From: Saccostrea cucullata
Taxonomy: Eukaryota
Assembly (NCBI RefSeq): GCF_032062105.1
Contig: NW_026934603.1
Location: forward strand, 1-59,484
Direction of reading: 5' to 3'
Length of the DNA stretch: 59,484 nt
A program made the position numbers. Of the stretch, positions 28,101 through 36,400 are shown piece after piece (the first letter of the stretch is position 1; the number at the start of each line of letters is the position of its first letter).

Positions 28101-30376
28101 ATTTCAATGTTCAAATCTTTTTAACTTGTTGAAAAAAATCGTTTAATTGTGCATAGATTTTACATGTAAGTTAATTTGAACATTTATCCTGACAAATTAG
28201 TGTATATGATAACTGTATACCAACATGCGATATATGTCATGAAGCATAAAATTAAAAAAAAAAAATAACCTCAGCATTGGACAAACACTCATCGTCAATT
28301 GAAAGTTTTAGTACAAAATTTTGCATAGTTTGATAAATTGTCAGGGTAATCATTCTACAAACACTCTTTTACTGGCATGTTTCTCTGGTAAGCGATACAT
28401 TTATAATGCAGGTAAATGTTCTCCGGGTTCTGCATCACCGGGTTTTTTTGCAAGTTTTGCTGATCTATACTTTGTGATTGTTCGTAACTTCATATTTACC
28501 ACAGTTCTTTGTAGATGTCTAAAAAAATAACAAAATCAATCTTTCAATGACATAATCAAACGTTTTGTCATACTATGGGTGCAACAACATAATCTGGCGA
28601 GGCTTTTTTTTTTTTTTTTTTTTTTTTTTTGCAAGACAAAATATTCAGGAAGTTTTGCTCTTTGCAAGGGTGTCTTATAGCTAGGGATGTCAATTAATTG
28701 ACTTACTATCTAATAAGGAAATACTCCGCTAGCATTTTTATTATTGGGTTATAACAAAAACTAATGCATACCCACAGAAGCATTTCAAACACAGTACTGT
28801 CACTACAGATAGAACCACAACAGGGATTACTATAATGAGGGCAACTTCCCATTCTTTCAAGCTGAAAAAAAAATAATTACAAATTCAATAAGAACAAATT
28901 ATCATATTTTAATGAATTTATAGCAAAAAAGAAGGGGGTCATCAATTCGTGTCAAACCGTTCTTCAGGGTCACATAATGCTGATGAATTTTATTACCGGG
29001 ATATTAAGAATGTTCTTCTTTTACACTAATTAATCTCATTCTATATTCACTTGACCGGTATTTATTCTATACTCATGTGTCAAGCATTTAACTATTTAGT
29101 GAAGACTTTATGTTCTTAATATTTTTCAAAAACAAATGGATTGTAAGCATAATCGAACAAGTTATTTTGGATTTCAAAGGTAAACTAGAACTGTATAATT
29201 CAATACGTGCGTTAATGACCCCCTCCCTCCCCCCACCCTGGGACGTCAATTCTGGGCCCAGCTGAGCAAGAGGAAAAAAAGGGGAAAACCCCAGATATTT
29301 TCAATATACATATAGCTTTATCATAAGGAAGCAATATAGAGGGACGTGGACACAACTTGACACAAATTTTTGATGAGCAGTTATGATCATTATGATGAAA
29401 AGTTATGAAGGATTTTTTTAGAGGGGACACAACCATAATTTAACTTTGTTTTCTATTGTTTAGCATATACTTGCAAAATTATAACGGGCACAGTTAAAAA
29501 CAAGATGGTATCTTTTTAAAAAACAAAACGGAACGTATCCCCTTCCTTACCAATATTAAGGAATGCACCCATGTGTACAAAATTTCAAGTCTTCATGACA
29601 GAAAGGGCTTTGTCTATGAATAAATAAGGAGAATTTCGAAGAATCCCTTTATTTGATGGTTTTGCCTTCGCCCTCCATCCCTGCCGCATGTAGGACCTTG
29701 ATTAATTATATACAGTTCGAAGACATTGACATTATCCAGAGCTCTCTTTTTTTCAACACCAAACACCAACTCTTTTTTTGTTGTAGAAATGGCTTTTGAC
29801 AAGTAAGTGATTTGGCAATTTTCGATGAATCTAAAATCGTTTGCTTTATCAACCATATAGATAATTCTTAATTATGTTTAAAATGTACAGTGTTTAGAAT
29901 TCTGATGCACAGGAACTGTTTAATCATAACATAAAGTACATAGTAGTGACACTTTGCATTTTTGTTTTAAACGAAAATTAAGTCAAGATCCTGCAAAATA
30001 CATGTATGATTTAGTCGTAATTTGACAGATTTGTGCAATCAGATTTGAAAGTTTAGTCAATGACTAATAATTTTTGCTTGTGTAATACTCAGGTCACATT
30101 TAGCTCTCATCCACCCCCTCCCGCACGCTGAACAAGGAAATTGACAAGGAGGCATTTAATTACTTTCCATTATATTGTGTTTAGACAGATATTATTTCTA
30201 CCTTGAGTCCATTTCATTTGTCATCATGCCCTTTGTATTATTCTTGCTGAAAGTGGTCCTTGGTCTATAACACTCTTCATCTGTATAAAAAAAAGAAATA
30301 CTATTTAATATTACATGTATTTCTCTGTTTGAGTATTCAAGTTCTAGATTCTCATATAGTCAAGGCCATCAAACTA

Positions 30377-30470
<94 letters not shown>

Positions 30471-33400: not shown

Positions 33401-36400
33401 AGAGCGATACCTCTCTAGCCTAGAGAGATATCTCTAAAGCTTATAGAGATATCTCTTTGACCAATAAAGATATCTTCATACCTTAGAGAGATATCTCTTC
33501 AAACAAATAGATATACCTTATTGAAAGAGAGATATCTCTTTTACTTAGGGAGATATCTTTAAAAGCTTGAGAGATGTCTTTAAGCGAGAGAGAATCTCTT
33601 TAAGTTAGAGAGATATCTCTTTAACAAGGTTACAAGATATATCTTTCTTAGTTATTTATCTCTTTAGATTTTCAAAAAAAGATATCTTTCTAAGCTAAAG
33701 AGATTTATTATACTTCTGTGAAATGTTTCCTATATAAAGTTAAGAAGGTAAAATAACTATCTTTTATAGTTTACGCATAGCAAAGCTATACCTCGAGGTA
33801 TAATTTTTGCTATCCACCCTTGGAAATTTTTCATGCAAATTTTGCCTCCAATTTTGATTTCCAGCGATAAATCTATTGACTGATGATGTCATGATGACTT
33901 CAGTAGCATTGTGACGTCATCAGGATTCAGAATTATTCTTGCAGTATTATCATACTCCTAAAAAGTCAAACCTAAGATATTATATTATACATCAGTATAA
34001 TATAACGCTTATCTACTGGTTGTAAGTGGGATAGCCCTCGGGGAATAGTTCCCTGTCGCGGGTTTGATAAAAGAGCTATCCCACTAACAACCAGTGGATA
34101 ATATCTTTTAATGAAAGAGATATCTCTTTATCAGTCATCCTTTAAATAAAATAATTAATTCTCCCCTTTAAAACGAAAGCGAAACAGGAAGTAAAGTCTC
34201 TAGAATAATTTCGCTGGAAAATGTTATGAAGCCCTTGTTTGAAACAGCAAATAGCGATGGCAACTTTCTAGATTAAAAATGCTAAACGTGTGATTTTCAG
34301 GAAAACGAAAGTAAGCCTACGATATCTCAAATATAATAGACCGAATTTTCTCAGCTTATGAAATAATCAGGTACTACAAAATTGAAACATAGACAACACT
34401 GAATTATTTGTCATATTTAATTAAGCTATAATGTAGCATATTATGAATAAGCTTAAAAATACTTTCCTGTACTTCCGTGAATAAAAAGATTACTTCTGGT
34501 AAAGGGGGAAATTTATGCAAATGGAATCTATATTAAAATAATGAAGAGAGATATATCTTTGCAATAAAGAGATATCACTTTTTGCTCGAGAGCTTGCACG
34601 TTCAAGCGTTATCCAAAAATCACGCAAATTTTTTTTCTTCATACTTTGGCTTCCTTTTTATCATAACCATGCTGTGGGTCCTATTTCTGCTGGGTAGAGA
34701 TAAGAAAAAAATTAAGGAACAATGCATTTACATGTAAAATTTTAAATATAGACCCCTGCGCTAACACCAGAATTCCAGACTCAAGGCCCATGAACATCTT
34801 CGAACAATTGTATGGTTGCCCCTTCCCGACCGACTGTCTAAAAAACAACCCGACTTAAAACTTTTTACCATTTCAGAACACTGTTTTGTTCTCTTATTAT
34901 TCCTGTCATCCCGTCAACAAATATTAAAAAATTTTCTGAAAAAGAATTCCACTTACCTATTGGTCCATTAATTTTACGCTGTGTCGGGAGAGGACAAGAA
35001 AGTATTATTCAAAGATGGCTTGAACCATTATAACTATATACTTAATTTGTCTTCTGTATATACACGGGGATAGAAGATTTTAGAGAACTTAATTTCACTA
35101 TATAATCTATGACGAATGTCAGCACTGTAAAATAAAAATCTAAAGTGCTGTTTCAAAAACATGAATATTGGTACAATTATTTGAACACTTGCTGAATATT
35201 TTAAAATTCTTATTACCATTCATTCAAATTACAGTAAACTTGTGCGTTTCTTAAATGCATCTAAAGGACCCGCAAAAACAGTAAAAAACATTTTTAATGG
35301 TAAAGACAATTCCTGAACTTGCTGACAAAAAAATAAAGCTTACCATGTAAGCAAATTCTCTCAATACATCCAGCTCCCAACGAACCATTTATATGGAATG
35401 CGCATATGAATATTAAACTATGATTACATGCTGGTGGATTTGGCTGTCGACAAATTGCATCATTGGTGAGTATTTTGAAATCCCTGACGGGCTGCTGTAG
35501 TTTACACTAAAATACAAGAAATTGTGAGCAATACTTCAAAGTAATAATTTCAAAGTTTTAATCTAAGAAAAATGTTGACTGTTAAAGTGAGCTAAATAGG
35601 AATATATGTATACAAAATTTAACTTTATAAGTACCTTGCCATCAGATTGCTGATCTCCAAACACTGTTGCTTGGAGGCAAATAAGCACAGATGCCAATAG
35701 TGCATACCGATCCACATCATTTTTCGCAGGCATACTGTAGAGAAAATGATATATACATGTAGTTTATTTCTTTGATCGTTTTCACGAAGCCTACAATTGG
35801 ATAAGTATTAATATCCTGGTGGAAACTGGAATTATAGAAACAACATGCTATGGTATGTGAAATCATACGTAACAATTATATAAAATTAAACGTTTGAGCC
35901 CTACTCAACATAGGCTGCTGGTCCCAGGATCATGAAACAGACTTAGACTTAAAGACAGATAATATAAAATAAACTTTTGTAAAAAAAAAAATTAAAATGA
36001 GTAAAAGGAAAATGTTTCACTGCTTACTTTTTTATTCGAAATTTCACATAAAGAGGATTTTAAGTGAAAAACATTTGTATAGATTAGGATTTAAAAATTC
36101 CCTTCATATATCTATGTGGGAAAATGTTGACCCCATGTAATCTATCCTAATGAAGTCATGAATCAAAATTAGCAAAATTATAATGAAACCTACATTGAAA
36201 ATGTTTAATTTTAATGTTACTATTATTGAATTGATCTGCTATTTTCTGTATACATGCATCTTATAATTTTTTTCCTGGATTATAGTCTGGTCCTGATGCA
36301 TGTTTATTAATTAGAAAACACAGATTTATTTGTCTTCAACGAACGTCTCAATCGACAATTAATCTTTATATATTTGAAAGTCTCAAAACGTGAAAATATC

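What the first reader, a model, noticed from the sequence alone, without database searches (positions are those of the whole stretch)
28401..35733. Hidden six-exon orphan receptor-like type I membrane protein with an unrecognised Cys-rich ectodomain
Seen: none of these exons is in the ORF track, yet six GT-AG exons splice with matching phases into 220 aa. The order is signal peptide; ~120-aa ectodomain with 9 Cys and five N-X-S/T sequons (NHS, NGS, NNS, NIT, NNT); short stalk; TM helix; juxtamembrane CLKCFC; basic tail. I do not recognise the Cys spacing (C..C..C..C..C / CP..Q..CxxC..Y..YxxCY) as EGF, TNFR, Ig or lectin. Inference: it resembles my recollection of lineage-expanded uncharacterised bivalve surface proteins and could be an immune or recognition receptor. 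The odd Cys count could allow a disulfide dimer, and the juxtamembrane Cys may be palmitoylated.
Basis: partly seen in the sequence, partly recalled or inferred. Interest (0 to 1): 0.72.

Follow-up and report, generated by a model that had tools for sequence, protein, structure and literature searches.

The report
Unannotated orphan oyster membrane glycoprotein gene
A small six-exon gene model for a cysteine-rich, single-pass surface glycoprotein in the hooded oyster looks real by its internal signals, but it has no detectable relatives, so it is best read as a plausible orphan gene and not as a receptor of any known kind.

Summary
The six minus-strand exons exist exactly as described. All five introns are GT-AG, the phases match, and the model gives 220 aa plus TAA. 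The window is a whole 59,484-nt Saccostrea cucullata contig that carries a RefSeq annotation.

Searched exon by exon, the model matched nothing:
- Pfam: no hit above cutoff on all six exons.
- PDB: no credible hit on all six exons.
- 5.8-billion word search: no hit with exons 2 and 3.
- Exhaustive phmmer against 1.84 billion representatives: 0 hits with exon 2.
- ESM Atlas: nothing usable with exons 2 and 3.

So the gene is absent from the annotation, and it is not part of a lineage-expanded family that I could detect.

Intrinsic signals favour a real gene:
- Exon GC is 0.40 against 0.30 in the introns.
- G at codon position 1 is enriched (P=0.004).
- 9 of 10 splice sites score at or above the 91st percentile.
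- The TM segment is stronger than 1101 of 1101 null ORF segments.
- There are five sequons where 1.0 is expected.

The splice chain alone is not significant: 4 of 40 simulated windows match it.

A better acceptor 12 nt upstream (35506) adds a Cys in frame, giving 224 aa and 10 ectodomain Cys. This undercuts the "odd Cys, dimer" idea.

Verdict: probably a real, unannotated, taxonomically restricted type I membrane glycoprotein. Immune or receptor function is unsupported. The joined protein was not searched or folded.

The parts
35635..35733 (-). Exon 1: ATG (35733-35731), 33 codons, phase 0 donor AAG|GTACTT. It encodes a signal-peptide-like segment: a charged start, a 15-residue hydrophobic core, and small residues at -3/-1 before DQQ. 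An in-frame stop lies 10 codons upstream of the ATG in the genomic frame.
   Evidence: Max Kyte-Doolittle (15-residue window) is 2.25; 8 of 226 ATG-started open 33-codon stretches elsewhere in the window reach it. Donor at the 94.4th percentile. GC 0.455 against 0.318 in the flanks.
35344..35506 (-). Exon 2: the first half of the Cys-rich ectodomain, with sequons NHS and NGS. An in-frame acceptor 12 nt upstream puts it at 35506 (163 nt, 6 Cys). The donor ATG|GTAAGC leaves 1 base carried.
   Evidence: Acceptor percentiles 82.8 (35494) and 86.9 (35506), donor 99.5. The chain search picked 35506. GC 0.397 against 0.295.
31841..31966 (-). Exon 3: 126 nt, a symmetric phase 1-1 exon. It is the second half of the ectodomain (3 Cys including CxxC, sequons NNS and NIT). 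Acceptor tttttcag, donor GTGAGT.
   Evidence: Acceptor 96.5th and donor 96.0th percentile. It is one of only 25 strict internal-exon candidates on the whole minus strand. GC 0.413 against 0.290.
30202..30280 (-). Exon 4: 79 nt. It holds the last ectodomain Cys (YxxCY across the junction), sequon NNT, and a polar stalk.
   Evidence: Acceptor 99.6th and donor 91.7th percentile. It is a strict candidate. GC 0.380 against 0.247.
28772..28861 (-). Exon 5: 90 nt, a phase 2-2 exon. It encodes the transmembrane helix followed by CLKCFC. Because its length is a multiple of three with equal phases, skipping it would keep the frame.
   Evidence: Kyte-Doolittle (19-residue window) is 3.14; 0 of 1101 null open segments reach 3.0. 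Acceptor 97.9th and donor 95.2th percentile.
28401..28518 (-). Exon 6: a basic cytoplasmic tail (8 K+R in 38 residues) and stop TAA (28403-28401).
   Evidence: Acceptor 96.3th percentile.
28098..28103 (-). AATAAA about 300 nt downstream of the stop, a possible polyadenylation signal. This is weak evidence, because the hexamer is common in DNA of 32% GC.
   Evidence: Read directly. Not tested against chance.

Best explanation
This is a real but unannotated protein-coding gene of the hooded oyster Saccostrea cucullata. It is taxonomically restricted: I could detect no relative.

It encodes a 220-224-aa single-pass type I membrane glycoprotein. The likely working is as follows (inferred unless marked otherwise):
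- The N-terminal hydrophobic segment directs the chain into the ER and is cleaved.
- The roughly 130-residue ectodomain folds around disulfides (10 Cys, hence five pairs, if the 35506 acceptor is used).
- The ectodomain is N-glycosylated at up to five sites.
- The exon-5 helix anchors the protein with the N-terminus outside. The positive-inside topology is shown by the charge distribution.
- The CLKCFC cysteines at the cytoplasmic face are candidates for S-acylation.
- The short basic tail lies against the inner leaflet.

The 38-aa tail has no recognisable signalling module. The protein would therefore act as a surface binding, adhesion or accessory subunit that needs a partner to signal, and not as an autonomous receptor. 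The exons, phases, topology signals and lack of relatives are shown. Expression, cleavage, glycosylation, acylation and any ligand are inferred.
For: Gene structure:
- Exons, GT-AG introns, phases and the stop are as described.
- 9 of 10 splice sites are at or above the 91.7th percentile of 6024 GT and 5876 AG sites in the window. The PWMs are approximate and recalled from memory.
- Exons 3, 4 and 5 are three of only 25 strict internal-exon candidates on the minus strand. There are 10 on the plus strand, and 4-13 per strand in 10 simulated windows. The three lie in order and in phase within 3.2 kb.
- The same procedure recovers acceptors of known NOM1 exons.
- The chain search rediscovered exons 1-4 without being told.

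Coding signature:
- Every exon is 6-14 GC points above its 200-nt flanks. Exons are 0.403 against 0.296 in introns, similar to the known NOM1 exons at 0.37-0.48.
- Pooled exon GC gives P=0.038 against open-frame null segments.
- G at codon position 1 is 27.3% against a null of 17.6%, P=0.0036.

Protein logic:
- TM hydropathy is unmatched in 1101 of 1101 null segments.
- The signal-like core is matched by 8 of 226 ATG-open stretches.
- There are 5 sequons against 0.99 expected (P=0.0034), all on the predicted outside.
- There are 10 Cys in about 135 residues (P=0.023).
- The basic residues lie after the helix.

Orphan status:
- Searches found no relative.
- The positive control found this contig's own RefSeq NOM1 protein at 100% identity, and orthologues in S. 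echinata (72%), Ostrea edulis (55%) and Magallana gigas (51%).
Against: - No homolog of exon 2 or exon 3 was found in any annotated or assembled protein, including the RefSeq (Gnomon) set of the same genome. A pipeline that uses transcript evidence therefore did not call the gene.
- The splice-score sum of the chain (22.9; 23.9 with the 35506 acceptor) was reached by 4 of 40 simulated windows (3 of 40 for 23.9). It is not the top chain on the real minus strand.
- The exon 2 acceptor is weak whichever AG is used.
- The GC and Cys enrichments are only modest (P=0.02-0.05).
- Thresholds were set after the fact from the model's own sites.
- Single-exon AlphaFold2 models were of low confidence: pLDDT 39.7 and 54.1.
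- There are no expression data. No orthologous genome could be searched.
- An AG acceptor at the 95.9th percentile directly precedes the ATG. An upstream exon cannot be excluded, so the 'signal peptide' could be an internal segment.
Confidence: 0.58

Rival explanations
1. Chance gene-like chain. AT-rich non-coding DNA offers many GT and AG dinucleotides and short open frames. A reader looking for a signal peptide and a TM segment could stitch them into a false gene.
For: - 4 of 40 simulated windows reach the model's splice-score sum. Other chains on the real strands score as high or higher: 27.85 on the minus strand and 21.5 on the plus strand.
- No homolog was found anywhere and the gene is absent from RefSeq.
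- The exon 2 acceptor is weak.
- The AlphaFold2 models were of low confidence.
Against: Independent signals all point the same way:
- G at codon position 1, P=0.0036.
- Exon-intron GC contrast in 6 of 6 exons.
- A TM segment unmatched in 1101 of 1101 null segments.
- Sequons, P=0.0034.
- A correct order and topology of signal, Cys/sequon region, TM and basic tail.
- Three strict exon candidates in order and in phase, where about 0.5 is expected in that 3.2-kb span from the simulated density (my arithmetic).
Confidence: 0.2
2. A divergent member of a known Cys-rich receptor family, for example a TNFR-type cysteine-rich domain. The C-x2-C followed by aromatic residues in exon 3 is reminiscent of such domains. 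The domain would straddle exon junctions and so escape exon-by-exon searches.
For: - The ectodomain is split over three exons, so each query was only 25-54 aa.
- The joined protein was deliberately not searched or folded.
- The resemblance of the C-x2-C...FY...C motif to TNFR modules is recalled, not computed.
Against: - No Pfam family reached E<=10 on exon 2 or exon 4. Only a sub-threshold DUF1289 match appeared on exon 3.
- Stop-to-stop frames holding exons 1-5 gave 0 families at E<=0.01.
- PDB phmmer found only zinc-finger noise, E=0.21.
- Exhaustive phmmer with exon 2 gave 0 hits, although oysters carry many annotated Cys-rich receptors.
- The spacing C-x7-C-x7-C-x11-C-x4-C-x5-C-x22-C-x2-C-x16-C has no CC doublet and no six-Cys repeat.
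Confidence: 0.1
3. A transcribed but non-functional locus. It could be a young de novo ORF, a decaying gene copy on a redundant unplaced contig, or a non-coding RNA whose exons happen to be open.
For: - No relatives were found and RefSeq has no protein model here.
- The contig is a small 59-kb unit. Its NOM1 fragment clusters at 90% identity with a second S. cucullata protein on another 55-kb contig, which suggests redundant assembly pieces.
Against: - All six exons are intact, with no stop or frameshift.
- The codon-position and composition signatures resemble those of coding DNA.
- The protein has a coherent secretory-pathway design.
Confidence: 0.12

Closest known systems
Generic small single-pass type I membrane glycoproteins with a disulfide-rich ectodomain and a short acylated basic tail (an architecture class, not a homology family)
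   Same: - The order of parts matches: signal-like segment, Cys-rich glycosylatable ectodomain, one TM helix, juxtamembrane Cys cluster, basic tail.
- The ectodomain exons are in phase 1, including a symmetric 1-1 exon. From my own knowledge this is common in extracellular modules.
   Different: No sequence relationship to any member could be shown.
TNF-receptor superfamily cysteine-rich domains (Pfam TNFR_c6, PF00020; accession recalled)
   Same: - Type I topology and a small size, like the shortest family members.
- A C-x2-C followed by aromatic residues and a further Cys in exons 3-4. This resemblance is recalled, not computed.
   Different: - No Pfam hit on any exon or on stop-to-stop frames.
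- No six-Cys module repeat. The spacing differs.
- No death domain, and no TRAF-type motif that I could recognise in the 38-aa tail.
Shisa-like / STMC6 small transmembrane adaptors (Pfam Shisa_N; description recalled from Pei and Grishin 2012, not read here)
   Same: A short type I protein with an N-terminal Cys-rich domain, one TM helix and a short cytoplasmic tail. This family is the closest analogue for 'needs a partner to act'.
   Different: - The recalled Cys pattern with a CC doublet is absent.
- The tail has no PPxY motif.
- No Pfam hit.
Ly6/uPAR three-finger domains (Pfam UPAR_LY6; recalled)
   Same: About 10 Cys in a small extracellular domain, if the 35506 acceptor is used.
   Different: - No CC...CN carboxy-terminal box.
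- A TM helix and a tail in place of a GPI signal.
- No Pfam hit.
Orphan / taxonomically restricted genes
   Same: No detectable homolog outside, or even inside, the species' annotated proteome. The gene is short and absent from the reference annotation.
   Different: Many orphans are short, unstructured and of one or two exons (my own knowledge). This model has six well-formed exons and a coherent secretory design.

Membership tests
Type I single-pass membrane glycoprotein (architecture class) | N-terminal cleavable signal peptide | tested here: inconclusive
   There is a hydrophobic core of 15 residues (Kyte-Doolittle 2.25; 8 of 226 null ATG-open stretches reach it) and small residues at -3/-1. 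No trained predictor such as SignalP was available. An AG acceptor directly before the ATG leaves room for an upstream exon.
Type I single-pass membrane glycoprotein (architecture class) | Exactly one TM helix with positive-inside charge on the C-terminal side | tested here: met
   Exon 5 has a Kyte-Doolittle 19-residue score of 3.14; 0 of 1101 null segments reach 3.0. Apart from the N-terminal signal-like segment in exon 1 (15-residue maximum 2.25), no other exon has a comparable segment (19-residue maxima up to 1.59). There are 8 K+R in the 38 residues after it, against an acidic LKEWE before it.
Type I single-pass membrane glycoprotein (architecture class) | N-glycosylation sequons confined to the luminal/extracellular side | tested here: met
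   5 of 5 sequons lie in exons 2-4, with 0 in exons 5-6. 0.99 is expected by chance, P=0.0034. Occupancy is not testable here.
TNFR superfamily | At least one TNFR-type cysteine-rich domain recognised by the family profile | tested here: not met
   Pfam hmmscan of the six exon peptides at E<=10, and of the stop-to-stop frames holding exons 1-5 at E<=0.01, gave no TNFR model. Caveat: a domain spanning the exon 3/4 junction was not testable, because the joined protein was not searched.
EGF-like, Ig, C-type lectin, Sushi and other common ectodomain modules | Profile match to the domain | tested here: not met
   4 of 6 exon peptides had 0 families. The other two had only sub-threshold noise: DUF1289 at 14.7 bits against a cutoff of 27, and Psg1 at 12.1 bits against 30.1. 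PDB phmmer gave 0 credible hits on 6 of 6 exons.
Shisa-like / STMC6 adaptors | Shisa_N-type Cys pattern with a CC doublet, and PY motifs in the tail (features recalled) | tested here: not met
   There is no CC doublet in exons 2-4 and no PPxY in exon 6 (peptides). No Pfam hit.
   - No paralog in the window. tblastn found only self hits below E=0.06, and the weak hits at 6-10 kb contain stops.
- Exon 2 and exon 3 word searches gave 0 hits.
- Exhaustive phmmer with exon 2 gave 0 hits among 1,835,955,588 representatives.
- The database holds the proteomes of S. cucullata, S. echinata, O. edulis, M. gigas and C. virginica.
- Unannotated copies in genomes could not be searched.
Orphan / taxonomically restricted gene | No detectable homolog outside a narrow taxon, yet evidence that the gene is real | tested here: inconclusive
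   Absence of homologs is met at exon level for exons 2 and 3. Reality rests on intrinsic signals only. Transcription and orthologous DNA are not testable with these tools.

The most novel reading that the evidence does not exclude
A genus- or species-restricted oyster gene, either recently born or evolving extremely fast. It encodes a surface glycoprotein whose five-disulfide ectodomain is a fold not yet in any family or structure database. It would have an optional secreted isoform made by in-frame skipping of the 90-nt TM exon. Such a molecule could be a private recognition or self/non-self surface tag of Saccostrea.
Probability: 0.2. Interest if true: 0.55.

Novelty: new member of a known kind. 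Interest (0 to 1): 0.3.

Why it matters
If transcription is confirmed, this would be a reference-annotation miss in a RefSeq-annotated bivalve genome. It would also be a clean example of a multi-exon orphan gene with a fully formed secretory-pathway design.

Such genes bear on two questions. One is how taxonomically restricted surface proteins arise in bivalves. The other is how many are missed by evidence-driven pipelines.

It does not open a long-standing question by itself. The architecture is ordinary, the function is unknown, and nothing here ties the gene to immunity.

Tried and rejected
1. Paralogs in the window. tblastn of the six exon peptides gave only self hits. Weak colinear-looking hits at 6-10 kb contain stop codons and were dismissed.

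2. Internal duplication. Exon 2 against exon 3 by BLASTP gave E=1.8.

3. ESM Atlas. For exon 2 the best score was 0.79, to a viral hypothetical cluster, which is below the usable level. Exon 3 had no usable hit.

4. AlphaFold2 on single exons. Mean pLDDT was 39.7 (exon 2, 54 aa) and 54.1 (exon 3, 41 aa). I therefore ran no fold search, because matches would be meaningless.

5. PDB phmmer on all six exons. The only hit was C2H2 zinc-finger noise for exon 3, E=0.21.

6. Splice chain as a significance test. It failed as stand-alone evidence: 4 of 40 simulated windows reached the model's sum.

7. Pfam survey of neighbours.
- Of the 399 stop-to-stop frames of 45 aa or more, I gave Pfam 150, those between 19838 and 45536. 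4 of 150 had sub-threshold matches, and none was an exon of the model.
- 12 long ORFs, of which 2 repeat frames of the 150-frame set (23338-23709 and 41026-41373), were scanned. Only the sub-threshold Vma12 and PT matches appeared.
- The remaining frames were not scanned.

8. tRNA and Rfam scans of the window found 0 and 0.

9. Literature. Two searches returned listings only. One used 'Saccostrea cucullata' plus 'genome assembly'. The other used 'orphan genes', 'oyster' and 'taxonomically restricted'. No listed title or abstract start concerned this gene or the S. cucullata genome. I read no paper.

10. Not done.
- Genome contigs was not used, because it holds only bacteria and archaea.
- The joined spliced protein was not searched, folded or looked up.

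
Full report
**What is there**

The feature lies on the minus strand. I read the sequence and tabulated the exons in a script.
- Exons at 35733..35635, 35494..35344, 31966..31841, 30280..30202, 28861..28772 and 28518..28401.
- Five GT-AG introns of 140, 3377, 1560, 1340 and 253 nt.
- Phases 0, 1, 1, 2, 2.
- Four split codons that read G, Y, S and G.
- 220 residues and a TAA at 28403-28401.

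The ATG is the first in its frame after a stop 10 codons upstream. A default ORF listing has no ORF of 60 aa or more that contains an exon in frame. The model is therefore indeed invisible to an ORF track.

Counted exon by exon, the model has five sequons, all before the hydrophobic exon. It has 9 Cys between the signal-like segment and the TM segment, CLKCFC right after the TM segment, and 8 K+R in the 38-residue tail.

**One correction to the model**

It is preceded by a better pyrimidine run. It is in frame and adds four residues, the first a Cys.

An unsupervised chain search chose it. With it the protein has 224 aa and 10 ectodomain Cys. The 'odd Cys, disulfide dimer' idea therefore rests on an uncertain splice choice.

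**Where the window comes from**

A 228-aa open frame at 1382-2068(-) is 100% identical to RefSeq XP_062579126.1, 'nucleolar MIF4G domain-containing protein 1-like, partial [Saccostrea cucullata]'. The longest contig for that protein is 59,484 nt, which is the window length.

The NOM1 exons map to 938-11700(-). The same search returned the orthologues of S. echinata (72% identity), Ostrea edulis (55%), Magallana gigas (51%) and Crassostrea virginica (a partial, 30%-coverage match). This is the positive control: the big protein collection holds the annotated proteome of this contig and of related oysters.

**Homology, exon by exon**

The joined protein was not searched, folded or looked up, which limits sensitivity for a domain that spans junctions. 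Results:
- Pfam on the six exon peptides at E<=10: four had nothing and two had sub-threshold noise.
- Pfam on the stop-to-stop frames that contain exons 1-5: nothing.
- Word-indexed search of 5.8 billion proteins, longer proteins allowed. Exon 2 had 1 candidate and none at E<=1. Exon 3 had no candidate.
- Exhaustive phmmer of exon 2 against 1,835,955,588 representatives: 0 hits at E<=0.001.
- ESM Atlas look-alikes for exons 2 and 3: nothing usable.
- PDB phmmer for all six exons: only zinc-finger noise at E=0.21 for exon 3.
- tblastn of the exons against the window: no paralog.
- Single-exon AlphaFold2 models were of low confidence, pLDDT 39.7 and 54.1. No fold search was run.

**Is it more than chance?**

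I tested this in several ways against null sets taken from the same window. The null sets were open stop-to-stop segments of at least 25 or at least 30 codons on both strands, outside NOM1 and outside the model.

Composition:
- All six exons are 6-14 GC points richer than their 200-nt flanks.
- Pooled exon GC is 0.403 (0.401 with the 35506 acceptor), against 0.296 in the introns. The known NOM1 exons are 0.37-0.48.
- Against open null segments, pooled GC gives P=0.038.

Codon periodicity:
- G at position 1 is 27.3%, against 17.6 +/- 3.2% in the null, P=0.0036.

Splice sites:
- I used approximate position weight matrices recalled from the general metazoan consensus.
- 9 of 10 sites lie at or above the 91.7th percentile of all 6024 GT and 5876 AG sites.
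- I then set thresholds at the weakest donor among all five and the weakest acceptor among exons 3-6. With these, the window holds 25 internal-exon candidates on the minus strand and 10 on the plus strand. Ten simulated windows held 4-13 per strand.
- Exons 3, 4 and 5 are all among the candidates, adjacent and in phase. Known NOM1 acceptors are recovered by the same procedure.
- These thresholds were set after the fact.

A result against the model:
- A dynamic-programming search for the best six-exon chain finds other chains of equal or higher splice score on the real strands.
- It reaches the model's sum (22.9) in 4 of 40 Markov-simulated windows. 11 of 40 had no chain.
- 'Six GT-AG exons in phase' is therefore not significant on its own.

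Protein features:
- The exon 5 helix (Kyte-Doolittle 3.14 over 19 residues) is unmatched. 0 of 1101 null segments reach 3.0.
- The signal-like core is matched by 8 of 226 ATG-started open stretches.
- There are five sequons against 0.99 expected, P=0.0034.
- There are 10 Cys in about 135 residues, P=0.023.

These signals are largely independent of each other, and the parts come in the one order that makes a type I membrane protein. I put the probability that this is a real spliced gene near 0.8. I put the probability that it is a functional protein-coding gene of the stated architecture near 0.6.

**What it most likely does**

- Shown: the topology signals, meaning a signal-like start, a Cys- and sequon-rich outside, one helix and a positive inside.
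- Inferred: ER entry and cleavage, disulfide folding, N-glycosylation, S-acylation of the juxtamembrane cysteines, and a tail that hugs the inner leaflet.

The tail is 38 residues long and has no domain or motif that any search recognised. The protein would therefore bind something outside and rely on a partner to signal. It would be an accessory, adhesion or tag-like surface molecule and not an autonomous receptor.

Exon 5 is a 90-nt phase 2-2 exon, so skipping it would keep the frame and give a secreted form. This is a possibility read from the numbers, not an observation.

**Comparison with known families**

The architecture is that of countless small type I glycoproteins. Membership of TNFR, EGF, Ig, lectin, Sushi, Ly6/uPAR or Shisa-like families was tested at exon level and not met.

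My descriptions of the TNFR, Ly6 and Shisa Cys patterns are recalled, not computed. The best label is a candidate orphan, meaning a taxonomically restricted gene.

**What stayed unchecked**

- RNA-seq.
- Orthologous oyster genomes.
- The joined protein.
- Exons 1, 4, 5 and 6 in the large collections.
- 239 of the 399 open frames of the window in Pfam.
- Literature: two searches gave listings only, and none concerned this gene.

**Verdict**

This is a plausible unannotated orphan gene of ordinary design. Interest is modest until transcription or conservation is shown.

Noticed in passing
window 938-11700 (-): This is the 5' part of the NOM1 gene (nucleolar MIF4G domain-containing protein 1-like, RefSeq XP_062579126.1, partial). 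It runs off the low end of the contig. A second S. cucullata RefSeq protein sits in the same 90% cluster: XP_062575365.1, named 'DNA ligase 1-like', 734 aa, on a 55,470-nt contig. This suggests redundant or haplotype contigs and an inconsistent name.
   Followed up: partly
window 41029-41373 (-): An open frame has a sub-threshold Pfam match to Vma12, the ER assembly factor of the V-ATPase (TMEM199-like). E=2.3e-4 and 21.6 bits against a cutoff of 25.5, covering profile positions 67-132 of 137. It may be the next gene upstream on the same strand.
   Followed up: no
window 32378-33181 and 33399-33624 (intron 2 of the model): Two copies of a 278-nt element (32459-32736 and 32904-33181, 93% identical). 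A 61-66-nt inverted-repeat arm recurs around them (32378-32443, 32459-32519, 32899-32964), which looks MITE-like. Next to them is an array of about 11 copies of a 21-nt palindromic unit built on AGAGATATCTCT.
   Followed up: partly
window 30377-30468 and 28604-28630: An (AT)46 microsatellite lies in intron 3 and a T27 run in intron 5 of the model.
   Followed up: no
window 12584-13726 (+): A 184-aa and a 92-aa open frame have no Pfam match. A strict splice-flanked exon candidate at 13467-13582/13675 has GC 0.42-0.43. This may be another gene transcribed divergently from the NOM1 start.
   Followed up: no
window 48359-48442 (-): An 84-nt stretch has GC 0.67 in a background of 0.32. ARAGORN and Rfam found nothing in the window.
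   Followed up: partly
window 35734-35735 and 36636-36752 (-): An AG acceptor at the 95.9th percentile sits directly before the ATG of exon 1, and a strict exon candidate lies 0.9 kb upstream. That candidate's phase does not fit a coding join to the ATG frame. A 5' UTR exon is possible.
   Followed up: partly
window 28439-28518 and 26549-26652 (-): The chain search found alternative 3' ends. One uses a donor inside exon 6 at 28438, spliced to an open terminal exon at 26652-26549. Another chain skips the TM exon in frame. Nothing shows that either is used.
   Followed up: no
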